52,401 bases of DNA, taken from sequence record NC_049466.2. One strand, given 5' to 3'. This document shows positions 194-51,802 of this stretch, piece after piece. The first letter of the stretch is position 1. Every line of letters starts with the position of its first letter. Source of the DNA: Escherichia phage vB_EcoM_4HA13. The translations under genes were made by a program, and so were the position numbers. Under the pieces are notes generated by a model. The model was not told the DNA's origin. It was given only the letters and a program-made list of their open reading frames with translations, and did no database searches.

Positions 194-361
194 ATGACTT
201 ACTACGATGCAGACTTAGGCTTGGTAATGTGCGAAAGCGAACTGTCCTTAGAGATAGACGCACTTGATTGGGAACACGAGCTACCTAAAGGTGAGCCACA
301 GTGGGGCGACGACGATTACGTTTATGTAGCGCCTACTGACGAATTTGATATCCCATTCTGA
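194..361 (+). CDS. Hypothetical small acidic protein (55 aa)
   Basis: ATG at 194 preceded by GGAGA; open to TGA at 359-361; below the 60-aa cutoff of the supplied ORF track. Confidence 0.35.
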   Translation: MTYYDADLGLVMCESELSLEIDALDWEHELPKGEPQWGDDDYVYVAPTDEFDIPF

Positions 362-6085: not shown

Positions 6086-6110
6086 TTCAACATTAGTTGG
6101 AATTGATAGG
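6086..6110 (+). promoter_or_regulatory. Conserved motif copy P2 (CAACATTAGTTGGAATTGATAGG)
   Basis: Intergenic, upstream of the gene at 6175. Confidence 0.5.
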
Positions 6111-6174: not shown

Positions 6175-6525
6175 ATGTCAAACGTAAAACAGTACGACGA
6201 TACTAACACTGGTATCATTGGTAAGAATGACTACAAACAGAAAGATACACATCCTGACCAACGTGGTCGTGTGAATATTAAAGGTTTGTGGTTTTGGGTA
6301 AGTGGTTGGGACAAAATGGCAAATGGCCGTCAGTTCACTTCTCTGGCATTCACTGAAATGACTCAGGCAGAAGTTGACACTATGATGGAGAAACGTGCCG
6401 CTAAATCTGCTCCACAGCAGCCTCAACAGCAGCAACAAGCTCAGGCTCCAGCTCAGCAAACTCCACCAGCAGGTCATCCGTCTCAGGAACCGCCGATGGA
6501 CTTTGATGACGATATTCCGTTCTAA
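6175..6525 (+). CDS. Small protein with Q/P-rich linker and a C-terminus identical to the E. coli SSB tail (EPPMDFDDDIPF)
   Basis: C-terminal 12 residues match the SSB tail as I recall it; N-terminal about 75 aa is W/F-rich but not recognisably a full SSB OB domain. Confidence 0.6.
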   Translation: MSNVKQYDDTNTGIIGKNDYKQKDTHPDQRGRVNIKGLWFWVSGWDKMANGRQFTSLAFTEMTQAEVDTMMEKRAAKSAPQQPQQQQQAQAPAQQTPPAGHPSQEPPMDFDDDIPF

Positions 6526-8418: not shown

Positions 8419-8705
8419 AATTGGAAGAATTACCGATTGAGCTTAAAGCTGCAACAAAAGCAGCAGAAGCGCAGCAAACTTATGTCAATCAATTGGTGGA
8501 CTTGTTTAACAAAGGCCAAACCACCATTGAGGTGTTCGATAAAAACCTCAATACTTGGACAGAAGTTCCGCTAAGCGAGTTTAATGCAATGCAGAATAAT
8601 CGTTTGACTGAACTGCTGAAACATAAAGACACTCTGCAAGGTTTATATGACCAGTTGCAAAGTCCGCTTGATGAAGCATTCAAAAATGTTCCGAAGACAG
8701 CATAA
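8415..8705 (+). CDS. Hypothetical protein
   Basis: ATGA overlap with upstream gene. Confidence 0.5.
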   Translation: MKLEELPIELKAATKAAEAQQTYVNQLVDLFNKGQTTIEVFDKNLNTWTEVPLSEFNAMQNNRLTELLKHKDTLQGLYDQLQSPLDEAFKNVPKTA

Positions 8706-9103
8706 TGTCTAACGTGAAACTTGGACAACGTTCCTTAGACAGACTCAGTGGAGTGAATAGTAGTCTAGTAGCAGTATTAAAGAAAGCGTGCGAATCCATG
8801 CCTTTTGATATTACTGTACTAGAGGGCGTTCGTTCTTATGAGCGTCAACAGGAACTATTAAAGCAGGGTGCAACAAAAGTAAGTGTTAGTCGGCACATGT
8901 CCGGCAATGCTATTGACATTGCACCATACCCAATCGACTGGAACGACACAGAACGGTTCAAAATTGTAGCGCATCATATGTTTGCTGCTGCAAAAGAGCT
9001 GGGCATTGTTATTCGTTGGGGAGGTAACTGGAGTCGTCAAGACGAAACAGTTAAGCCAACCTCCTCATTCGTTGATATGCCGCACTTCGAACTTCCGGCA
9101 TAA
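8705..9103 (+). CDS. Endolysin, peptidase M15 family (L-alanyl-D-glutamate peptidase type)
   Basis: Size and motifs (SRHMSGNAIDIAPYP, IDWND, GGNW, HFEL) resemble the T5 endolysin family. Confidence 0.6.
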   Translation: MSNVKLGQRSLDRLSGVNSSLVAVLKKACESMPFDITVLEGVRSYERQQELLKQGATKVSVSRHMSGNAIDIAPYPIDWNDTERFKIVAHHMFAAAKELGIVIRWGGNWSRQDETVKPTSSFVDMPHFELPA

Positions 9104-9469: not shown

Positions 9470-10003
9470 ATGGATTCACAAGTAATAATTGACCAGCTTA
9501 ACCGCGAAGTCAAAGATAAAACTCTGCTTATCCGTTTACATAATTTGCAGAATGGGACTGATATTTGGATTGATGGACTGTGTTGGCGTCTGTATGACTT
9601 CGATTTAGTTGATTACTTCAAAGAAGAGTTCGGCATTGAGATTGATTTACCGTTATCTTTCGATGTTTTGAAATCAGACAATGATTTCATTAACGAAGTG
9701 TGTTTCGGCAAGGTGTTTAAGCAACAAGTTTACGATGATGTAAATGGTCTGCTGGTTAACTATTCTGAAGATGCAATCCGTGAAGGTTTAGACTTAGGAG
9801 TTTCGGCAGAAAACTTTGCAGAAGCGTACAAAGGCCATTACGCAAACTTTATTTCGTTTGCAACTGGCATCTTTGACGAACTCGAACGTCCTGAATTGCC
9901 TGAGCGCTATCGAGACTGGATTGATTACGAGAAATATGCTGAGTGTTTGGAACAACAATACTACTTCGCAAATGGACATGTATTCGATGCAACGTATCTT
10001 TAG
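9470..10003 (+). CDS. ArdA-like acidic anti-restriction protein (tentative)
   Basis: Acidic 177-aa protein; C-terminal WIDYEKYA...YYFANGHVF resembles the ArdA C-terminus as recalled from memory. Confidence 0.5.
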   Translation: MDSQVIIDQLNREVKDKTLLIRLHNLQNGTDIWIDGLCWRLYDFDLVDYFKEEFGIEIDLPLSFDVLKSDNDFINEVCFGKVFKQQVYDDVNGLLVNYSEDAIREGLDLGVSAENFAEAYKGHYANFISFATGIFDELERPELPERYRDWIDYEKYAECLEQQYYFANGHVFDATYL

Positions 10004-10253
10004 TGCGGACTGGTTACAGCCCGGTGAAGTAATTTTCCACGAACCCCGTGGGCATTATTATGAATTACTTCATCGAACTTTAATTAAGTCTGACGTAAAA
10101 GGTGGAAGCTGGTCGAAAGGCTGGTGCTACCAAGAAGTGAAATCGGTGGAAGTGTTGAAGAATTGTATTCGACATGAACCACCAGCGGGAGAAGTTTATT
10201 CCCGACCGAACGAATTGTTCGACGAAGATTGGCGACTTGTTACTCCAGTGTAG
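9972..10253 (+). CDS. Hypothetical protein
   Basis: In-frame ATGs overlapping the end of the upstream gene; start uncertain. Confidence 0.35.
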   Translation: MDMYSMQRIFSADWLQPGEVIFHEPRGHYYELLHRTLIKSDVKGGSWSKGWCYQEVKSVEVLKNCIRHEPPAGEVYSRPNELFDEDWRLVTPV

Positions 10254-10383
10254 TTCCAAGCTGGAACCTTGATGTTCCAAGCGGGTTTGTAACTCGTTTG
10301 GGACTTCTTCTGACCCTTCGGCATTAGTAGGAAGTGCATCGGAGAAGTTTCCAAATCAATTAAAGCCACAACTGCATTATACA

Positions 10384-10500
10384 GAATGTGTCAAAATTCT
10401 GTCAAGAAATATTCCAAATATTCCACGCCAAAGGAATAGCGGAATAATAAATAATTTATTCTAATTATTATTAAATTTTGGAATATTGGAATAATATTGA
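10384..10500. repeat. AT-rich iteron-like cluster (AATATTCCA / TGGAATA units)
   Basis: Tandem and inverted copies of AATATTCCA directly upstream of motif copy P3. Confidence 0.5.
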
Positions 10501-10520
10501 AACATTAGTTGGAAGAAAGA
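10498..10520 (+). promoter_or_regulatory. Conserved motif copy P3 (GAAACATTAGTTGGAAGAAAG)
   Basis: Intergenic; followed by a long hairpin. Confidence 0.5.
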
Positions 10521-10526
10521 AACAAC

Positions 10527-10614
10527 ATCTTGAAGCATTCTTGTAACTTGGTAGTCCGTCCGGCGCCGTGACGTGTGAGAATGTTCGAATCATTCTACAA
10601 GAGTGCTTCAAGAT
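10527..10614 (+). ncRNA. Long imperfect hairpin with tRNA T-arm-like apex (GAATG-TTCGAAT-CATTC); candidate RNase III site or tRNA-like element
   Basis: 19-bp inverted repeat 10527-10545 / 10596-10614 with one mismatch; apical 5-bp stem with 7-nt loop TTCGAAT. Confidence 0.4.
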
Positions 10615-11327
10615 GGAATGTTTCCATCAATGTCCCGAGTATCTTGGTATCCGTTAGCAAGAACTCACAACCTAAACTTACAGTATAATCTGGCAGGTTA
10701 TCCACATAGGTTTTACGACATGTAGGGTTATTGATTTAGTTTAGACGCTATATCAATCGAACTTAGTACGAATAAGCAAGCTGATAGGGCTGAATAATTA
10801 GAGGTAATGACCTCATGCTTATGATTGTCGGTTCACAAAATTTGTATGGCTCATGTTAATTGGTTTTGAAGGAAGTTCAACTCACAATTATAGACCTTGA
10901 GCCAACATCAAATTGCTCTTATAGAGATACAGGAGATACGTATCACCGCTATTTGTTTCGCCTGACTAACGAAACAGAGAATGTGACAAAGGCTAGTCAC
11001 TGGAGTGTCGGCCTGTATCACTATAAGGGTAATTCCTGCAAGCCAGCCAGCGCCAGCCAAGCGCTACGGCATAAAGAGTGTGATTATATGGGTGGTGGTT
11101 TGCGTGTCTCAGACGTTACGGTGTTGCGCACAATGGCGCATCCTCAGAGTTCCTGTATCGCTTGAGTTGGGGCGCAAGTCTTCACCCACATAATCATACA
11201 GAATTGGAACAAACGCTTGGCAGTGGCTTGAATTTCGGGCTATTTGTGCAAGTCTGTGGTCTACTTTCAGTGGGCTAAAAGATAGAGAAACGTCACATTA
11301 ATTGAATCGAAAATTGGAGACATTCCT

Positions 11328-11627
11328 ATGATTCGTAAACATTCAGCAAGGGTTATAAAAGCAAAGAATGTACACACCGGAGAGATTGAAGCTTACGCTT
11401 TAATTGGTGGTGTATATTTTCTTGCTGGCTGGGAGAAATCCTATAAAAATCCTGGATTCAGTTTTATCGGACTAAATGACGAAACTGCATCATTGTTCGA
11501 AGAACGTGTTAAGTATTCTGCAAGCTTCTTGGAGTATTCGTTTGGTAAATCCATCAAACAACTGCTTTCCAAATCTTTCATTCACGAGTGGACTACCAAA
11601 CAGGAAGTCTACGGAGTTCCATTTTGA
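11328..11627 (+). CDS. Hypothetical protein
   Basis: ATG with GGAG RBS after about 1 kb of non-coding DNA. Confidence 0.5.
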   Translation: MIRKHSARVIKAKNVHTGEIEAYALIGGVYFLAGWEKSYKNPGFSFIGLNDETASLFEERVKYSASFLEYSFGKSIKQLLSKSFIHEWTTKQEVYGVPF

Positions 11628-11932
11628 AACGCAAAACTTTGAAACAAAAGCTCCGTGCACAGGTTCGTAAAACAAACGAACTTCGTAAGCAGGAGCATGA
11701 ACAAGCCGGAATTACAATCAACTTTGAACTTGCAGCAATGCAGTCAGTTGGTATGGCTCACGGCATCATGGCTACAATGATTCATGCCAAGAATCTGTTG
11801 GGCGAAAATGATTCTAAATATCACGAAATTCGTGACACGGCGCAGGAACGTATTGCACAGTGCGTTGTAGCATTAGTTGGAATGGGTATTCCTGCTGATG
11901 TAGTTAATCAGCGTATTGTGCAAGGTCATTAA
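11588..11932 (+). CDS. Hypothetical protein (start uncertain, GTG)
   Basis: Open frame overlapping upstream gene end; contains an internal promoter-motif-like copy at 11871-11883. Confidence 0.35.
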   Translation: MDYQTGSLRSSILKRKTLKQKLRAQVRKTNELRKQEHEQAGITINFELAAMQSVGMAHGIMATMIHAKNLLGENDSKYHEIRDTAQERIAQCVVALVGMGIPADVVNQRIVQGH

Positions 11933-11934
11933 CT

Positions 11935-12606
11935 ATGGCATTCGAGCAAGATAAAGAAATTGCGCTCGAAACTTGTAAACAGTGGCTTGAAGATAACGAT
12001 GCAGCGTATCTTGCAAAGGAAGATGTTATCATTTTCTGGACGCATTTTAATCCTGAGTCTAAACGTGGCGAGTGGTCACGATATAAGATGAAGGAAGCCT
12101 GTCGAGTTATTAAAGCCACTCGTGCAGGTTTCGCTGCAATGCGATTCATTAAGCCAGAACTGATTATGATGGCGGCTCAGGAAACCGAACGCGCCTACAA
12201 ACAGTCAGTTAAGTCTCGTTCCACAGTTCCATCTGAGTTCTTTAACTTGGAGCGCAGCGGTCACTTCAACAATTTAGAAATGTTGACAATGTGCATGTTG
12301 CAGGAATTAGTTGGAAGGGGATGGAACGTAGAAGCAATTTGCCTTGGAAAGCTTATGAAAAAGCTATTCGAAACAAAAGGCTTTACGTCCCCAAGCCGAA
12401 TGCTACGCTGGAAGCTGCTAAGGGCAGTCGCTGAAGAAGCGGGTGTAGTTATTCGGGATAGAACGAATCGAATCACTGTAACAGGTGTTGGACGGTTTGT
12501 GGCTATTCAAATCGAAGGAGTAAATGACTCCATTAAGGTTGAGTTCACCGTTGAAGAAACGCAGGACTTAATCACCGAATCAGTCAAACGATTTAATTTG
12601 ATTTAA
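11935..12606 (+). CDS. Hypothetical protein (223 aa)
   Basis: ATG 2 nt after upstream stop. Confidence 0.55.
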   Translation: MAFEQDKEIALETCKQWLEDNDAAYLAKEDVIIFWTHFNPESKRGEWSRYKMKEACRVIKATRAGFAAMRFIKPELIMMAAQETERAYKQSVKSRSTVPSEFFNLERSGHFNNLEMLTMCMLQELVGRGWNVEAICLGKLMKKLFETKGFTSPSRMLRWKLLRAVAEEAGVVIRDRTNRITVTGVGRFVAIQIEGVNDSIKVEFTVEETQDLITESVKRFNLI

Positions 12607-12631
12607 TTCGTTTGTAAATAAGAGCAGTTCT

Positions 12632-12654
12632 GAAACATTAGTTGGAATTGATTC
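12632..12654 (+). promoter_or_regulatory. Conserved motif copy P4 (GAAACATTAGTTGGAATTGATTC)
   Basis: Best match to the consensus; intergenic, upstream of the acidic gene. Confidence 0.5.
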
Positions 12655-12729
12655 TTAGAGAAATTCTTCTCAAACTTTTATCGTAAATCGGCAAAAATCG
12701 CCGCCCAATTTATATAAGGTATTAAAGCA

Positions 12730-13089
12730 ATGGCTAAAGTAGTCACAGTAACTCAGTACGAAGCACAAGACGGTTCCCTGTTTCTGACCGAACACGAGTG
12801 TGATGCACACGATTTCAAACTGGAAAACGGTGCGAAAATCGATGTTATGGCTGAAGCGTTCCTGAACACCGTCGGTGCAATCGACCGTTCTCGTAACATG
12901 CAGAAAAATGTAATCGAAGCGTTCCTGGCCTTCACCCTGCCGCGTCTGGCTGCTGGTACTGAGCTGGAACCGGTTGAACGTACCAAGTTCGACACCCCGA
13001 AAGCAGAGAAAGAAGTGGTTGAAGGCGCAGCCGAAGTTGCAGCCGAAGCGGTTGACGGCGCAGTTGGCGACGAACCTTCAGTATTCTAA
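12730..13089 (+). CDS. Highly acidic small protein; candidate host-takeover or DNA-mimic protein
   Basis: Acidic C-terminal tail EVVEGAAEVAAEAVDGAVGDEPSVF; codon choice typical of highly expressed E. coli genes; sits between motif P4 and a hairpin. Confidence 0.6.
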   Translation: MAKVVTVTQYEAQDGSLFLTEHECDAHDFKLENGAKIDVMAEAFLNTVGAIDRSRNMQKNVIEAFLAFTLPRLAAGTELEPVERTKFDTPKAEKEVVEGAAEVAAEAVDGAVGDEPSVF

Positions 13090-13110
13090 ATCGATCTGGT
13101 CGGCGGCGCA

Positions 13111-13134
13111 AGTAGGGTAGATGCCCTACTTTAG
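13111..13134 (+). terminator. Weak terminator-like hairpin (AGTAGGG-loop-CCCTACT)
   Basis: 7-bp stem then a short TTT; U-tract is short. Confidence 0.3.
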
Positions 13135-13471
13135 CAAAGTCACTTTGAATCCCATTCCTAATTGGAGTGGGCTTCAATTTGTGCATAATCCAAACACCAT
13201 TACATGAGCTTTCGACGGTAAGCAATGTTGGGAAATTTGTTGTGTACAAATTGAAGTAGTTTTCTGAGTCTTACGACGGGCCTAAACTGCCTGAAGTTAT
13301 TGTGACTGTTTTATTCATTTAAAATAAATGCAAACGATTCTGAAATGCGTGTAGCAGCTTAATTAAATTTAAGAAGCTCTCCGTGGTCTTTCGATTCCAT
13401 GTAAACAAATTCGACGCATTGTGTCTCCGTGATGTGATTAATAAAACGGAGTTCAAATTAAAGAGGTATCC

Positions 13472-18815: not shown

Positions 18816-18924
18816 CAAAGAACTCCCACTGCATAGAGCTGGCTAACTTAGTAGTCGTCGGTAACTACCAGTGGGATTCTTCCTATTTAACCTGGAGCCT
18901 AAAGTGTTGTATCCGTGGGAAAAT

Positions 18925-20361
18925 ATGCAAGCCAGTGATATTGAAACTACTGGATTGCTGAAACAAATGAAAAAGCAAGCGAGTCCTCGTTTGCACAACT
19001 TTGGTTTCATCGATATGATGACCAAAGAAGAAACCGTTATGGAATGGACGGAACGGAAACGTATTCAAGATTATTTGAATACAGGACCAACACTTATCAT
19101 GCATAACGGCGCAACCTTTGACTTTGAAGCATTAAAGTTCTTAGGTTATGACGTATCTAAATGTACTCTGATTGATACTTTGTATCTAAGTTGGTACTTA
19201 GAACCTCGCAGACCTAAACACGGTTTGGAAAGTTACGGTGAAGAATTTGGTGTGCCTAAACCAGTCATTGAAGATTGGGAAAACCAAACTCAGGAAGAAT
19301 ACAACAATCGTGTACTGGAAGACTGTAAAATTCAGTCTCGCCTGTGGGAACAGCAGTACAGCCAACTGTTGCAAATTTATCGTTCACCACAAGAGGTAAG
19401 ACGTTTCGTAGAATACTTAATGACAAAAGCACGTCAACAAGTTATACAGCAACGCACCAAGTGGAAGTTGAATAAAGAAAAGGCTTACGCATTTAAGGCA
19501 ATGTTGGAACCAATGTTGCTTGAGAAAACTTCTGAACTTGAGAAGTCAATGCCGCGTATTGTTGAATATGCGCTCAAAAGCCAGCCAGCAAAAATGTACA
19601 AAATGGACAGAACTTTGTCTGCCGCTGGTATTAAATGGAAAGCTATTTGTGATGCAAATGGTTTAGATTTCCGTGACCCTGATGTTCAAATTAAGTACAT
19701 CAAAGGTTATAAAGAGCCGAATGCAAACTCTCACGTACAGCTTAAAGAGTGGCTGTTCAGTTTGGGTTGGGTTCCTCAAACATTTAAGTTTGACCGTAAT
19801 AAGGAAACTGGCGAAACTCGTCAGATTCCACAAATAACAATTAAGGATGAAGATGGTAATCCTGAGATTTGTCAAAGTCTTCATGACTTGGCTGAATCGA
19901 ATCCCGGAAAAGGTATTGAACATCTTATTGGCTTGGGCGTTTATAAACATCGTCTTAGTGTTGTCAACGGGTTTCTGCGCGATGTTGATGATGAAGGTTT
20001 CCTTACTGCACGTTGTGGTGGCCTTACTAACACTTTACGTCTCAAGCATCGTGAACTCGTTAACCTGCCTTCTATTCGTGTGTTTGGTGGTGCGGAACTC
20101 CGAGGAATGCTTGAAGCGCATTCAGAAGAATACGAACAACTAGGTTCGGATTTGTGTTCTCTGGAAGACCGTTGTAAGCACCATTATCAGTGGGCGTATG
20201 ACCCTGAATATGTTAAGAAGCAGTTAGCTGATGACTATGATGCACACTTAGCAATCGGTGTTATCGGTGGATTCATTACTGAGAAAGAATCTCAGGACCA
20301 CAAAGACGGGATTGCAAAATGTAAGCAACGTCCAATGTTCAAAACAACAAACTATGCGTAA
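18925..20361 (+). CDS. DNA polymerase, family A (T7 gp5-like), N-terminal part ending inside motif B
   Basis: Starts MQASDIETTGLL (compare T7 MIVSDIEANALL, Exo I); Exo II HNGATFDFEAL; ends ...KTTNYA at a stop inside motif B. Confidence 0.8.
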   Translation: MQASDIETTGLLKQMKKQASPRLHNFGFIDMMTKEETVMEWTERKRIQDYLNTGPTLIMHNGATFDFEALKFLGYDVSKCTLIDTLYLSWYLEPRRPKHGLESYGEEFGVPKPVIEDWENQTQEEYNNRVLEDCKIQSRLWEQQYSQLLQIYRSPQEVRRFVEYLMTKARQQVIQQRTKWKLNKEKAYAFKAMLEPMLLEKTSELEKSMPRIVEYALKSQPAKMYKMDRTLSAAGIKWKAICDANGLDFRDPDVQIKYIKGYKEPNANSHVQLKEWLFSLGWVPQTFKFDRNKETGETRQIPQITIKDEDGNPEICQSLHDLAESNPGKGIEHLIGLGVYKHRLSVVNGFLRDVDDEGFLTARCGGLTNTLRLKHRELVNLPSIRVFGGAELRGMLEAHSEEYEQLGSDLCSLEDRCKHHYQWAYDPEYVKKQLADDYDAHLAIGVIGGFITEKESQDHKDGIAKCKQRPMFKTTNYA

Positions 20362-21014
20362 ATTGATGCGCATATAAAATCCCTTTAATTCGGTGGAACT
20401 CTCTACCGCAGAGACAATACCGAGCGAAGCATGAAAAGAAATTACTCACCAAAGAAATGTCCTTGTGGAAATGTATTTATTCCGACAGGGCCAAGAAGTT
20501 CCAAGTGCAAACCGTGCTCTAAGATTGTTGAACAGGAATCGAGAGATAGGTCGTACATAAAACATTGCCTCAATACAGGTATTAACTGTGGTGCTGGCAC
20601 AGGAAACTTCGAACACGCAAAAGGTTCAGAAAGCAAGTGCTACTCTTCTGGCAAAGGAAATTATGTCCGTGCTAGAAAGGAAATGCTTGAAGACCTCAAG
20701 TGTTGTGAAAGGTGTGGAAAGAATCTAATAAACGTTCACTATACAAAGCGTGTGATTCATCATCGGGACCATGACAGAAGCAATAACGTAAGAAGTAACT
20801 TTGAGTTACTTTGCAAACGTTGTCACCAACTTCATCACGATTGTCACGATGCTTTCATGAACGTGTAACGACTAGCCGTAAGGCGTACATCCAAGTGGAT
20901 GGAAACGGGGGACCCGACGTTTGTCGGTGATGATATAGTCTGCTCTGCATGGTGACATGCAGCTGGATGAAATTCCGGCATAAGATTAACGAACTTATGT
21001 GAACAATGTAAATG
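20360..21014 (+). mobile_element. Probable group I intron carrying an HNH endonuclease ORF, inserted in DNA polymerase motif B
   Basis: Flanking ORFs split motif B (KTTNYA / QYGAG); GACTA at 20870-20874 can pair with TAGTC at 20936-20940 (P7-like); hairpins with GNRA loops (GCC-GTAA-GGC, TGCATG-GTGA-CATGCA). Exact splice sites are inferred. Confidence 0.55.
20431..20868 (+). CDS. HNH homing endonuclease (intron-encoded)
   Basis: Cys-rich zinc-finger segments plus HHRDHDRSNN...LLCKRCHQLHH. Confidence 0.7.
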   Translation: MKRNYSPKKCPCGNVFIPTGPRSSKCKPCSKIVEQESRDRSYIKHCLNTGINCGAGTGNFEHAKGSESKCYSSGKGNYVRARKEMLEDLKCCERCGKNLINVHYTKRVIHHRDHDRSNNVRSNFELLCKRCHQLHHDCHDAFMNV

Positions 21015-21493
21015 GTCAATATGGTGCTGGTGTTGCAACTGTAACTCGTTCTGCTAAATGCGATTTGGCAACTGGTGCACGACTGCATAAAGCATATTGG
21101 GACTTGAACTGGTCCATCAAAGAGATTGCAGCTAATACAGTTGTTAAGACAGTTGATGGTCAGATGTGGCAGCAGAATCCAGTAAATAAATTCTGGTATT
21201 CACTCCGCACTGAGAAAGACCGATTCTCTACTCTGTGTCAGGGCACTGGCGCATATGTGTTTGATATCTGGTGTAACAATATTATCGCAATCTGCAACGA
21301 ACGTTATGGATGCGACCCACTCCTTTCTGGTCAGTTCCACGATGAATTGATTTTGCAAGTGAAGAAAGGGTATCGTGAATTGTGGACGGCACTGTTGCAT
21401 GAAGCGATGGAACGTACCAACAAACAACTTAAACTCAACCGTGATTGTGCATGTGATGTTCAATTCGGTGATAATTATTCAGAGATTCACTAA
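20999..21493 (+). CDS. DNA polymerase, family A, C-terminal part (motif B second half and motif C)
   Basis: Begins ...NGQYGAGV and contains FHDELILQV. GTG start with no obvious RBS, consistent with being an exon that in a spliced model would begin near 21015. Confidence 0.75.
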   Translation: MNNVNGQYGAGVATVTRSAKCDLATGARLHKAYWDLNWSIKEIAANTVVKTVDGQMWQQNPVNKFWYSLRTEKDRFSTLCQGTGAYVFDIWCNNIIAICNERYGCDPLLSGQFHDELILQVKKGYRELWTALLHEAMERTNKQLKLNRDCACDVQFGDNYSEIH

Positions 21494-21773: not shown

Positions 21774-22637
21774 ATGGCATTTGATGCTCCTACTCTGGCC
21801 TCCAACAAAGCCCCTTCTGCTGCGCCATTACTGGAAGCGGGTGGCTATCCTGCTCGCGTTTGTCGTATCATCGACTTAGGCTGGCAACCGGGTTCTGCAA
21901 AGTATCCACAACCTCAGCTTAAATTGCTGGTGACTTTCGAACTTCTGAATGAGTACATGAAAGAAGTTGATGGTGAAGGCAAAATCATCATGGTCCAAGA
22001 CCCGGACGAAGATGACGGTGTTCTGATGGGCAAGAACTTGGAAGACAAGCCACGTTGGTTTGACTTTGAGTTCAGTTACAACTCCGATGGCTACATGGGT
22101 GACAACTCTCACATCTACAAATTTGCGAAAGCAATTGATGCAATGGAAGTTGCGCCAAATCTGGAACAAGGTGTTCAAGGTCATCCGGCTAAGAAACTTA
22201 TTGAATGGCTTGGCGAACCACTGACCGTTGGTCTTGACCAGTACCAGAGAAAGTCTGGTAAGAATGCCGGACAAATGGCAAACAAAATTATTACGTTTGC
22301 ACCAATGAAGTCCAAAGAGAAGCGCGAAGCGAAAGAACTGGTTAACCCAACTGTGTTCTTCGACATGAGCAACCCTGACCTTGAAGTGTTCAACAAACTT
22401 CCAGGCGGTGAGTCTCCATTTGCAATCAAGAACCGTATCACCACTGGTCCGAAGTTTGCCGAATCAAAACTGTCTGCATTGATTGGCGGTAAGCCAGTTG
22501 ATACTGCAACGCCGAATCAGGCGTCAGAAGAACAGGTTGACGAAGCGATGCAAGCAGAGTTGGAAGCACAGAAGCAAGCTCGTGAAGCAAATGCTGCTGC
22601 AAATGCAGAAGGTGCCACAAGCAACATTCCGTTCTAA
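21774..22637 (+). CDS. Putative ssDNA-binding or replication accessory protein with acidic C-terminus ending IPF
   Basis: Sits in the replication module; acidic tail ending ...SNIPF like SSB-family tails. Confidence 0.4.
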   Translation: MAFDAPTLASNKAPSAAPLLEAGGYPARVCRIIDLGWQPGSAKYPQPQLKLLVTFELLNEYMKEVDGEGKIIMVQDPDEDDGVLMGKNLEDKPRWFDFEFSYNSDGYMGDNSHIYKFAKAIDAMEVAPNLEQGVQGHPAKKLIEWLGEPLTVGLDQYQRKSGKNAGQMANKIITFAPMKSKEKREAKELVNPTVFFDMSNPDLEVFNKLPGGESPFAIKNRITTGPKFAESKLSALIGGKPVDTATPNQASEEQVDEAMQAELEAQKQAREANAAANAEGATSNIPF

Positions 22638-51235: not shown

Positions 51236-51247
51236 ATAAAGGTGCCC

Positions 51248-51802
51248 ATGATTTCAATCAAAGCACTTGTAATCCTGTTGGCATCTTTCAGTACTCAAGT
51301 CCCAGCTTCGGTTGGGACTCTGAACGATTCGCTTACAGATTTTGCAAGTCATTCCTATTTAAATGGAAGTCTCAAACTATCTTCTTCACAACGGAAAGAG
51401 CTAGATTGTTTAACTAAAGTTATCTGGTTTGAAGCTCGTGGTGAGAGCAAACACGGAAAGATTCTTGTAGCTAATGTCGTTCAAAATCGAATGAACTTCG
51501 GAAAGCCATTCGCTACAACCGTTTGTGGTGTTGTCTATCAACGCAGCCAATTCTCTTGGACACTTGAGTCTAAGAAGAAGCATGCTCGCTTCAAAGATGT
51601 TGCTAAGAAGCATTGGAAAACCGAGCAGAAGCAAATAGAAGATACGATTAGTGTTGCAATGAATGTAATATTGTTCGACGCAAAACCAATCACAGAGGCT
51701 ACTCACTTCTGTACCGCTACGGAACGTTGCAGTTTCAAAAATGTAACTAAACTTGGTCGGTATGGAAATCATAAACTGTACAAGTATAAGGGCAATTCAT
51801 GA
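51248..51802 (+). CDS. SleB-type cell wall hydrolase with N-terminal signal sequence
   Basis: WFEARGE...ANVVQNR...VCGVVYQRSQFS pattern; hydrophobic N-terminus; ATG at 51248 with AAAGG RBS. Confidence 0.55.
   Translation: MISIKALVILLASFSTQVPASVGTLNDSLTDFASHSYLNGSLKLSSSQRKELDCLTKVIWFEARGESKHGKILVANVVQNRMNFGKPFATTVCGVVYQRSQFSWTLESKKKHARFKDVAKKHWKTEQKQIEDTISVAMNVILFDAKPITEATHFCTATERCSFKNVTKLGRYGNHKLYKYKGNS

What the first reader, a model, noticed from the sequence alone, without database searches (positions are those of the whole stretch)
9470..13140. Two acidic early proteins as candidate anti-restriction factors
The 177-aa protein at 9470-10003 has an ArdA-like C-terminus (WIDYEKYA...YYFANGHVF), though this is from memory of ArdA. 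The 119-aa protein at 12730-13089 is strongly acidic, uses high-expression codons and forms an apparently monocistronic unit between motif P4 and a hairpin. Acidic DNA-mimic proteins expressed first after injection are a known anti-restriction strategy (T7 Ocr, ArdA).
Basis: inference. Interest (0 to 1): 0.55.

Follow-up and report, generated by a model that had tools for sequence, protein, structure and literature searches.

The report
Known ArdA gene plus abundant acidic-tailed protein
One of the two acidic phage proteins is a divergent ArdA-type anti-restriction protein already annotated as such in this published phage, while the other is not related to any anti-restriction family and looks like a very abundant, conserved protein that docks onto a partner through an acidic tail ending in phenylalanine.

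Summary
The window is the genome of Escherichia phage vB_EcoM_4HA13 (Chaseviridae). Both ORFs exist as described.

**ORF 9470-10003 (177 aa, net charge -21).**
- Its C-terminal half is homologous to ArdA: Pfam PF07275 scores 33.8 bits against a cut-off of 27, and hhalign to plasmid ArdA gives 94.5% probability.
- It is already annotated "antirestriction protein" in GenBank (QEM42994.1) and in relatives since 2008. This part is correct but not new.

**ORF 12730-13089 (119 aa).**
- It has no ArdA or Ocr similarity.
- Most of its net negative charge sits in a disordered A/E/V-rich tail. All 79 close homologues end in Phe.
- It has the highest codon adaptation of 69 ORFs, its own phage-type promoter and two terminal hairpins.
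- It was detected by mass spectrometry in purified virion preparations.
- Its folded domain is as conserved as the replication and structural core (95% identity to phage Faunus, against 37% for the ArdA-like protein).
- It stays next to a 223-aa partner gene, upstream of the primase/helicase gene.

I read the 119-aa protein as a tail-docking protein of DNA metabolism, resembling the tails of SSB and T7 gp2.5, not as an anti-restriction factor. Neither gene is shown to be expressed first.

The parts
6087..6102 (+). Phage-RNAP-type promoter motif heading the transcription unit that runs from the SSB-like gene (6175) to the ArdA-like gene
   Evidence: Motif match TCAACATTAGTTGGAA and alignment of six copies. 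The equivalent 'putative phage promoter 3' is annotated upstream of the SSB gene in phiEcoM-GJ1.
9470..10003 (+). Divergent ArdA-family protein, 177 aa, pI 4.23, net -21 (GenBank QEM42994.1 'antirestriction protein')
9987..10253 (+). 88-aa ORF (phrog_2652, function unknown) that overlaps the 3' end of the ArdA-like gene. The same overlapping arrangement occurs in GJ1, Faunus and Myduc.
10253..10307 (+). Two hairpins (10253-10267 and 10271-10307) that end the ArdA transcription unit
   Evidence: Terminator-like scan; fold with z = -3.7.
11935..12606 (+). 223-aa protein (phrog_13087, function unknown), the conserved syntenic partner of the 119-aa gene
12632..12651 (+).
   Evidence: The equivalent in GJ1 is 'putative phage promoter 7'. 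The motif is conserved upstream of the orthologue in Faunus, Myduc and phiA050.
12730..13089 (+). 119-aa abundant core protein (QEM43000.1, AC4HA13_0029; phrog_17419). It has a folded domain 1-92, an acidic disordered tail 93-118 and an invariant C-terminal Phe119.
13110..13131 (+). First hairpin after the 119-aa gene (9-bp stem)
13145..13177 (+). Second hairpin (TTGAA-CCCATTCC...GGAGTGGG-TTCAA, followed by TTTGTG). It is conserved in GJ1, Faunus and phiA050, with sequence differences between the copies; whether these keep the stem paired was not tested. Probable terminator or processing site.

Best explanation
The region holds two unrelated genes of Escherichia phage vB_EcoM_4HA13.

(1) ORF 9470-10003 encodes a divergent member of the ArdA family.
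- Shown: the C-terminal half (residues about 97-175) is homologous to the central and C-terminal part of plasmid ArdA, and its length and acidic content match.
- Inferred: like ArdA, it forms an elongated acidic dimer that mimics DNA and occupies the DNA-binding groove of Type I restriction-modification enzymes, protecting the phage's unmodified Type I sites.
- Inferred: it is transcribed with the SSB-like gene from a phage-RNA-polymerase promoter, so it is probably a middle gene rather than the very first product.

(2) ORF 12730-13089 is not an anti-restriction homologue.
- Shown: it is the most codon-optimised gene of the genome. It has its own promoter and a double terminal hairpin.
- Shown: it is a core gene of the phage family, kept next to a 223-aa partner gene upstream of the T7-like primase/helicase and DNA polymerase genes.
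- Shown: it consists of a small folded domain, a 23-38 residue acidic disordered tail of variable sequence, and an invariant C-terminal Phe.
- Inferred: the tail works as a tethered docking peptide, as in E. coli SSB and in T7 gp2.5 and gp4. It would plug the terminal Phe into a pocket of a conserved partner, either the phage replisome or a host DNA-metabolism protein.
- Inferred: the protein is therefore an abundant accessory or decoy of DNA replication or host takeover, not a Type I restriction inhibitor.
For: Identity of the window and existing annotation:
- Exact-sequence look-up gives QEM42994.1 'antirestriction protein' and QEM43000.1 'hypothetical protein AC4HA13_0029', on a 52401-bp contig.

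ArdA-like protein:
- PF07275 scores 33.8 bits against a cut-off of 27, covering residues 97-168.
- phrog_14321 'anti-restriction protein' matches at 2.9e-33 over the full length.
- 19 of the 21 homologues carry PF07275.
- hhalign against R64 ArdA gives E 8.4e-06. Against two plasmid ArdA sequences it gives 94.5% probability and E 7.4e-08 over 79 columns.
- R64 ArdA itself links to structure 2W82 at 1.4e-06.
- It has 36 acidic residues, as R64 ArdA does; net charge is -21 against -25.
- Type I sites occur at roughly expected frequency, so the phage is a potential target.

119-aa protein:
- CAI rank 1 of 69.
- Promoter and hairpins are present and conserved in relatives.
- LC-MS/MS of purified 4HA13 virions detected it at 53% coverage, alongside the non-structural SSB (PMC9699118 Table S2).
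- tblastn matches in 79 annotated phage records.
- Identity to Faunus is 95%, the highest of all ORFs. The partner is 88% identical and the ArdA-like protein 37%.
- A homologue of the 223-aa partner is found beside the distant homologues, strongly in one locus and weakly in two, and two of these loci carry the primase/helicase gene downstream.
- The model shows a beta-hairpin plus two helices, with pLDDT below 50 for residues 95-114.
- The tail is 29% A, 23% E and 14% V, and 79 of 79 homologues end in F.
- 14 of the 29 distant homologues inspected, including most of the higher-scoring ones, keep an acidic tail with a terminal or near-terminal Phe.
- T7 gp2.5 (..EDGDF) and gp4 (..NDTDF) tails were read from the T7 record.
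Against: ArdA-like protein:
- Only the C-terminal half matches. The N-terminal 96 residues give no significant profile match.
- A profile of the phage family does not hit 2W82 by sequence.
- I found no experimental test of any Chaseviridae ArdA-like protein in the papers searched.

119-aa protein:
- The docking mechanism rests on architecture and analogy only.
- The tip (E-A-P-V-F) differs from the SSB tip (D-D-D-I-P-F).
- No partner is identified.
- The folded domain has no informative fold match.
- Detection in virion preparations could instead mean that it is packaged.
Confidence: 0.6

Rival explanations
1. The 119-aa protein is a DNA-mimic anti-restriction or anti-defence protein. Its acidic surface or tail would occupy the DNA-binding site of a restriction or BREX-type enzyme.
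For: - It is acidic overall: pI 4.44, net -12.
- It is very highly expressed.
- It is small.
- It lies 2.7 kb downstream of the ArdA-like gene.
Against: - There is no ArdA or Ocr profile match and no DNA-mimic fold match.
- The folded domain carries only -5 net charge.
- It is a slowly evolving core gene, 95% identical to Faunus where the ArdA-like protein is 37%.
- It has an invariant C-terminal Phe and fixed synteny with the replication module. Neither feature is explained by DNA mimicry.
Confidence: 0.1
2. The 119-aa protein neutralises an abundant, conserved host protein during takeover. Candidates are a nucleoid-associated protein (H-NS, HU) or host RNA polymerase. This would be analogous to T7 gp5.5 or gp2, which a phage carrying its own RNA polymerase needs.
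For: - Very high expression fits a stoichiometric inhibitor of an abundant target.
- Slow evolution fits a conserved host target.
- The phage has its own single-subunit RNA polymerase.
- T7 gp5.5 is of similar size and also ends in F.
Against: - There is no sequence similarity to gp5.5 or gp2.
- No evidence bears on any target.
- Conserved synteny with the primase/helicase module points to replication instead.
Confidence: 0.2
3. The 119-aa protein is a virion-associated protein, either internal or ejected, or a scaffold-like assembly factor.
For: It was detected at 53% coverage in twice-CsCl-purified 4HA13 particles (PMC9699118 Table S2).
Against: - The same list contains the non-structural SSB, and the authors say it includes non-structural components.
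- The gene lies about 15 kb from the structural module, among replication and early genes.
- The data are not quantitative.
Confidence: 0.1
4. The ArdA-like protein has kept the ArdA C-terminal domain but acts on a different target, for example BREX, another DNA-binding defence, or a decoy sensor, rather than on classical Type I enzymes.
For: - The N-terminal half is not recognisably ArdA.
- Other DNA mimics such as Ocr act on several systems (PMC7261183, listed).
- It always comes with an overlapping 80-90-aa partner ORF, which is absent beside R64 ardA, where the next listed gene starts about 730 bp downstream.
Against: - A forced global profile alignment is colinear with ArdA over 150 columns.
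- Length and charge match ArdA.
Confidence: 0.15

Closest known systems
ArdA of conjugative elements (R64/ColIb-P9 plasmid ArdA; Tn916 Orf18, PDB 2W82; EcoR124I-ArdA complexes 7BTO/7BTR)
   Same: For the 177-aa protein:
- The C-terminal 79 columns are homologous, including ..PE....(I/F)DYE.YA......F..GHVF.
- Length is similar (177 against 166 aa).
- Both have 36 acidic residues and pI about 4.1-4.2.
- The best structural neighbour is 2W82.
- It sits in one transcription unit with an SSB-like gene, just as ardA and ssb share the plasmid leading region.
   Different: - The N-terminal half lacks the VYVGTxHKYNCGSIAGxW signature and gives no significant match.
- It is phage-borne and sits behind a phage-RNAP-type promoter.
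- It is followed by an overlapping 88-aa ORF.
- No assay exists for this subfamily.
T7 Ocr (gene 0.3)
   Same: It is a small acidic phage protein, and the concept of DNA mimicry against Type I enzymes is shared.
   Different: - Neither ORF has sequence or profile similarity to Ocr.
- Ocr carries net -28 in 117 aa, is the first gene and is transcribed by host RNAP.
- The two genes here lie 9.5 and 12.7 kb in, behind phage-type promoters.
Acidic C-terminal tails of E. coli SSB (..DFDDDIPF) and of T7 gp2.5 (..EDGDF) and gp4 (..NDTDF)
   Same: For the 119-aa protein:
- It has a disordered acidic tail ending in an invariant C-terminal Phe.
- Expression is very high.
- It has its own promoter directly upstream, as T7 phi2.5 precedes gene 2.5.
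- It lies upstream of a T7-like primase/helicase and DNA polymerase.
   Different: - The folded domain is a beta-hairpin plus a helical hairpin, not an OB fold.
- There is no SSB profile hit.
- The tip motif is P-[VLM]-F rather than I-P-F.
- ssDNA binding is untested.
- The phage has a separate SSB-like protein carrying the exact E. coli tip.
E. coli YebG (SOS-inducible, PF07130)
   Same: - The N-terminal motif is similar (..F.[ST]..EADA[HY]D..L).
- The overall layout is similar: a small domain followed by an acidic C-terminus.
- Distant homologues give sub-threshold Pfam hints.
   Different: hhalign gives 1.5% probability over only 27 columns. All Pfam scores are below the cut-off. The protein is not a member.

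Membership tests
ArdA (Pfam PF07275) | Match to the family profile above the curated cut-off | tested here: met
   33.8 bits against a gathering score of 27, E 6.3e-08. Only residues 97-168 match, against profile positions 76-151 of 155. 19 of the 21 homologues carry PF07275.
ArdA (Pfam PF07275) | Homology to experimentally studied plasmid ArdA (R64/ColIb type) in the C-terminal domain | tested here: met
   hhalign gives 83.5% probability and E 8.4e-06. With two plasmid ArdA sequences it gives 94.5% and E 7.4e-08 over 79 columns. R64 ArdA links to 2W82 at 1.4e-06.
ArdA (Pfam PF07275) | ArdA N-terminal domain (conserved VYVGTxHKYNCGSIAGxW region) | tested here: inconclusive
   There is no local profile match for residues 1-96. 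A forced global alignment is colinear and pairs LQNG..IWID with YNCGSIAGRWFD, but at low per-column confidence.
ArdA (Pfam PF07275) | Elongated multi-domain fold of 2W82 | tested here: inconclusive
ArdA (Pfam PF07275) | About 165-180 aa, strongly acidic (pI about 4) | tested here: met
   177 aa, 36 D+E, net -21, pI 4.23. R64 ArdA has 166 aa, 36 D+E, net -25, pI 4.08.
ArdA (Pfam PF07275) | Dimeric DNA mimic that inhibits Type I restriction-modification enzymes | not testable with these tools
   This needs restriction-alleviation assays or binding to the EcoKI or EcoR124I methyltransferase core.
Ocr (T7 gene 0.3 family) | Sequence or profile similarity to Ocr | tested here: not met
   Neither protein gives an Ocr Pfam hit at E up to 1. 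Family profiles of both proteins score about 0 bits against T7 Ocr.
SSB / T7 gp2.5-type proteins | Disordered acidic C-terminal tail ending in a conserved Phe | tested here: met
   For the 119-aa protein, pLDDT is below 50 at residues 95-114. The tail carries net -7. 79 of 79 homologues end in F, and the preceding residues are mostly P-[VLM].
SSB / T7 gp2.5-type proteins | OB-fold ssDNA-binding domain | tested here: not met
YebG (PF07130) | Profile match | tested here: not met
   Only sub-threshold hits, 14-16 bits against a cut-off of 27.5, and only in distant homologues. hhalign gives 1.5% probability.
phrog_17419 (uncharacterised phage protein family) | Full-length profile match | tested here: met
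   2.4e-50 over residues 1-113. There are 82 homologues in the word-indexed search and 36 representative clusters in the exhaustive search.

The most novel reading that the evidence does not exclude
The 119-aa protein would be the most abundant member of a set of Chaseviridae proteins that end in a Phe tip. The others are the SSB-like protein (..DDDIPF), a 287-aa replication-module protein (..xPF in four genera), a 99-aa protein (..GVPF) and two small ORFs (..IPF). Together they would plug into one hub pocket, either the host SSB interactome or the phage's T7-like replisome. That would make the 119-aa protein a new kind of non-OB 'tail-only' organiser or decoy of replication.
Probability: 0.25. 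Interest if true: 0.6.

Novelty: already known. Interest (0 to 1): 0.3.

Why it matters
The ArdA-like gene is routine annotation. Its only open point is that no member of this divergent phage subfamily has been tested, and its N-terminal half is unlike canonical ArdA.

The 119-aa protein is the more useful lead. It is the most highly expressed gene in the genome and one of the most conserved, and it is detectable in proteomes. It belongs to a phage family used for biocontrol of E. coli, Erwinia, Pectobacterium and Yersinia, yet it has no assigned function. Its Phe-tipped acidic tail gives a directly testable handle through tail or Phe mutants and pull-downs. This could show how a myovirus with a T7-like transcription and replication set organises replication or host takeover.

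Tried and rejected
- **Foldseek of the ArdA-like model against the PDB:** nothing below E = 1.
- **Profile of the phage ArdA-like family against PDB sequences:** nothing.
- **tblastn of the 177-aa protein against plasmids:** no match.
- **Word-indexed profile search:** it did not reach canonical ArdA. The bridge was instead made with R64 ArdA, fetched by accession.
- **YebG lead:** rejected, with hhalign at 1.5% probability.
- **T7 gp2, gp5.5, gp5.9, gp1.2, gp2.5 and Ocr:** no similarity.
- **A wrong turn:** I matched the published mass of AC4HA13_0029 (12,922 Da) to homologue P0072. This was a coincidence. The exact-sequence look-up showed that the window's own protein is AC4HA13_0029.
- **Partner protein:** the 223-aa protein has no PDB or Pfam match.
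- **Literature:** searches found no transcriptome or functional study of either protein in Chaseviridae. The ArdA tested in the accessory-gene screen is a canonical plasmid-type protein, not this subfamily.
- **phiEcoM-GJ1 paper:** it is not held in the library.

Full report
**What the window is.** An exact-sequence look-up shows that both proteins are deposited proteins of Escherichia phage vB_EcoM_4HA13, on a contig of 52,401 bp, which is the window length. The 177-aa protein is QEM42994.1/YP_009884080.1, 'antirestriction protein'. The 119-aa protein is QEM43000.1, 'hypothetical protein AC4HA13_0029'. 4HA13 is the type member of the genus Sabourvirus in the family Chaseviridae (PMC12842549; PMC9699118). 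DNA and protein searches agree. The nearest annotated relatives are Faunus, phiA050, the PYps phages, MLP1 and phiEcoM-GJ1. Genes run on the + strand. A single-subunit RNA polymerase gene lies at 399-2363, replication genes at about 17-26 kb and structural genes beyond 27 kb.

**Checking the observation.** Both ORFs exist as stated.
- The 177-aa protein has the largest net negative charge among the small proteins (under 300 aa) of the ORF set: pI 4.23, net -21.
- The 119-aa protein has pI 4.44 and net -12. Of this, -7 sits in the last 27 residues. The first 92 residues carry only -5.
- The codon claim holds. With E. coli CAI weights the 119-aa gene scores 0.665, rank 1 of 69 ORFs. The major capsid gene scores 0.589 and the median is 0.29. 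The ArdA-like gene is ordinary at 0.32, rank 21.
- The motif before the 119-aa gene (GAAACATTAGTTGGAA at 12632) is one of six good copies. All lie on the + strand and nearly all are intergenic: 119, 2702, 6087, 10499, 11867 and 12632. There are 7 matches with up to 3 mismatches against 1.0 expected.
- The motif is the same sequence that the phiEcoM-GJ1 GenBank record annotates as 'putative phage promoters' (AAACATTAGTTGGAATTGAA). GJ1's 'promoter 7' sits upstream of the orthologue of the 119-aa gene. Faunus, Myduc and phiA050 have it there too.
- After the stop codon there are two strong hairpins, at 13110-13131 and 13145-13177 (z = -4.2). The second is conserved in GJ1, Faunus and phiA050.
- The unit is therefore real. 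However, nothing terminator-like separates it from the upstream gene, so read-through is likely in addition to its own promoter.

**The 177-aa protein is a divergent ArdA.**
- Pfam ArdA (PF07275) matches above its curated cut-off (33.8 against 27 bits), but only for residues 97-168.
- A PHROG family annotated as anti-restriction protein matches the full length at 2.9e-33.
- 19 of the 21 close homologues carry the Pfam domain.
- To test against an experimentally studied ArdA, I fetched ardA of plasmid R64. R64 ArdA links to the Tn916 ArdA structure 2W82 at 1.4e-06.
- The phage family profile aligns to R64 ArdA at E 8.4e-06. With a second plasmid ArdA added, it reaches 94.5% probability and E 7.4e-08 over 79 columns.
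- The N-terminal 96 residues give no significant match. A forced global alignment is colinear and pairs the LQNG..IWID segment with the canonical YNCGSIAGRWFD segment, but at low confidence.
- Length and charge match. Both proteins have 36 acidic residues, with net -21 against -25.
- I conclude that it belongs to the ArdA family, with a divergent N-terminal half. The mechanism, an acidic dimer that mimics DNA and blocks Type I enzymes, is inferred from the family and not shown.
- The genome keeps Type I target sites at about the expected frequency: EcoKI 4, EcoBI 7, EcoAI 5, EcoR124I 16. Some lie in the first 9.5 kb. A Type I inhibitor would therefore be useful.
- None of this is new. The gene is annotated as anti-restriction in this phage and in GJ1, PM1, Y2, ST32 and others. 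I found no experimental test of this subfamily. The ArdA used in a large accessory-gene screen is a canonical plasmid-type protein.

**Timing.** The nearest upstream promoter motif for the ArdA-like gene is at 6087, ahead of the SSB-like gene. The unit ends at two hairpins, 10253-10307. In GJ1 the only annotated host sigma-70 promoter precedes the RNA polymerase gene, and all later units have phage-type promoters. If that reading is right, both genes are middle genes transcribed by the phage polymerase. This differs from T7 gene 0.3, which is the first gene and is read by the host polymerase. 'Expressed first after injection' is therefore not supported.

**The 119-aa protein is something else.**
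- It has no Pfam, NCBIfam or PDB sequence match and no similarity to Ocr or other small T7 proteins. It belongs to an uncharacterised PHROG family.
- Homologues are numerous: 82 in the word-indexed search, and tblastn matches in 79 annotated phage records.
- The alignment shows a strongly conserved domain (residues 1-92), then a tail of variable sequence but constant composition, then an invariant final Phe.
- Over 79 close homologues the tail is 23-38 residues long, with 29% Ala, 23% Glu and 14% Val. All 79 end in F, mostly as P-[V/L/M]-F.
- An exhaustive profile search found only 36 representative clusters. Of the 29 distant homologues inspected, 14, including most of the higher-scoring ones, keep an acidic tail with a terminal or near-terminal Phe, such as ..EEDMF..EDELF and ..EDDLF.
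- A weak resemblance of the N-terminal motif to E. coli YebG did not survive testing.

**Conservation and context of the 119-aa gene.**
- Against Faunus, the 119-aa domain is the most conserved protein of the genome (95%). Its upstream 223-aa neighbour follows at 88%. Both exceed terminase, helicase and capsid.
- Against GJ1, both are 78% identical, which is core level.
- The ArdA-like protein is 37% and 33% identical to its Faunus and GJ1 counterparts, and tblastn did not detect it in Myduc.
- A homologue of the 223-aa partner lies upstream of the 119-aa homologue in distant metagenomic relatives. The match is strong in L007 (25% identity, E 4e-22) and weak in L010 and L009 (E 1e-6 and 1e-3). 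In L007 and L009 a T7-like primase/helicase gene lies one to three genes downstream.
- The published proteome of twice-CsCl-purified 4HA13 lists AC4HA13_0029 at 53% coverage, alongside the non-structural SSB. That fits high abundance.
- A very abundant, slowly evolving protein tied to the replication module is not the profile of a counter-defence gene.

**Most likely mechanism for the 119-aa protein.** The closest functional analogy is the acidic, Phe-terminated tail of E. coli SSB (..DFDDDIPF) and of T7 gp2.5 (..EDGDF) and gp4 (..NDTDF). I read the T7 sequences from the T7 record. According to established knowledge of those systems, the tail docks onto partner proteins through the terminal Phe. 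Like gene 2.5, the 119-aa gene has its own phage promoter and lies upstream of the primase/helicase and polymerase genes. The folded domain is not an OB fold, so the protein is not an SSB family member. Only the tail logic is shared. I estimate about 35-40% for a tail-docking role in replication or DNA metabolism. I give about 20% to an inhibitor of an abundant host protein, about 10% to anti-restriction or DNA mimicry and about 10% to a virion-associated protein. The remainder is unknown.

**A related side observation.** Several other proteins of this phage end in a 'PF' tip.
- The SSB-like protein carries the exact E. coli SSB tip.
- A 287-aa protein in the replication module ends ..NIPF. 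Its orthologues end ..NQPF, ..GMPF and ..GQPF.
- A 99-aa protein ends ..YGVPF, as does its GJ1 orthologue.
- Two small ORFs end ..IPF.
This suggests a shared docking pocket somewhere in the system, and it makes the tail hypothesis testable.

**Verdict.** It is unsupported for the 119-aa gene, whose properties point elsewhere. Overall interest is modest. The 119-aa protein is the part worth an experiment.

Noticed in passing
window 1-52401: The window is the complete deposited genome of Escherichia phage vB_EcoM_4HA13 (Chaseviridae, Sabourvirus). Both proteins match its GenBank entries exactly, on a 52401-bp contig.
   Followed up: yes
window 119, 2702, 6087, 10499, 11867, 12632 (+ strand): A 17-20 nt motif, (A)ACATTAGTTGGAATTGA, is repeated six times on the coding strand, mostly intergenic. 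It is identical to the 'putative phage promoters' annotated in the phiEcoM-GJ1 record and conserved in position in Faunus, Myduc and phiA050. The 2022 ICTV profile states that Chaseviridae promoters have not been identified.
   Followed up: partly
window 194-361, 2418-2630, 6175-6525, 11328-11627, 21774-22637: Five ORFs end in [I/V]PF, against about 0.06 expected by my rough estimate. The SSB-like protein ends in the exact E. coli SSB tip DFDDDIPF. The 287-aa protein keeps xPF in Faunus, GJ1 and Myduc, and the 99-aa protein keeps GVPF in GJ1. This suggests a shared docking site for Phe-tipped tails.
   Followed up: partly
window 6175-6525: The protein annotated as SSB is only 116 aa. NCBIfam SSB models match only its linker and tail (residues 63-116), and Pfam finds no SSB or OB domain. 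The folded part of about 65 aa may not be a canonical SSB.
   Followed up: partly
window 18871-21493: The family-A DNA polymerase gene appears split into a 496-aa part (18871-20361) and a 164-aa C-terminal part (20999-21493). A 145-aa Cys/His-rich ORF (20431-20868), not itself scanned against any family library, lies between them. The gene is contiguous in Faunus and GJ1 (in GJ1 an HNH gene lies just upstream of it), so this is possibly a homing endonuclease or intron insertion.
   Followed up: no
window 10300-11330: This is a roughly 1-kb gene-poor stretch after the ArdA unit. It holds a perfect sigma-70 consensus on the minus strand (10405..10376, TTGACA-18-TATAAT), a very AT-rich block (10440-10500) and a phage promoter motif at 10499. 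Faunus also has an unannotated gap of about 1.1 kb at the same place. It may be a replication origin or a regulatory region.
   Followed up: no
window 9987-10253: An 88-aa ORF (phrog_2652, function unknown) overlaps the last 17 nt of the ArdA-like gene. The same overlapping pair occurs in GJ1, Faunus and Myduc, which suggests translational coupling or a functional partner.
   Followed up: partly
window 8705-9103 and 51242-51802: An M15 peptidase ('endolysin', L-alanyl-D-glutamate peptidase) sits in the same transcription unit as the SSB-like and ArdA-like genes, far from the late lysis genes at the right end. This recalls T7 gp3.5 lysozyme among the class II genes.
   Followed up: no
window 11935-12606; loci L007 5217-5900, L009 3-440, L010 1-561: The 223-aa protein (phrog_13087, no Pfam or PDB match) is 88% identical to its Faunus orthologue. 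A homologue lies upstream of the 119-aa gene in distant relatives (strong match in L007, weak in L010 and L009), and L007 and L009 carry the primase/helicase gene downstream. Its function is unknown.
   Followed up: partly
window 12652-12729 and orthologous leaders in L001-L004: The 5' leader of the 119-aa gene contains a small hairpin (CGGC..GCCG in the window). Different sequences that also look able to pair lie at the same place in GJ1, phiA050 and Myduc, but I judged this by eye only; the window leader's fold is not better than shuffled sequence (z = -1.2). A conserved ATAAGGT ribosome-binding region follows. It may be an mRNA-stabilising element.
   Followed up: no
protein P0122 (704 aa, from the representative search): The N-terminal motif of the 119-aa family (Y..DG..F....EADAH) occurs at least five times in a 704-aa protein that also carries S-layer-homology (SLH) domains. 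The hairpin-helix unit is therefore a reusable module outside phages.
   Followed up: no
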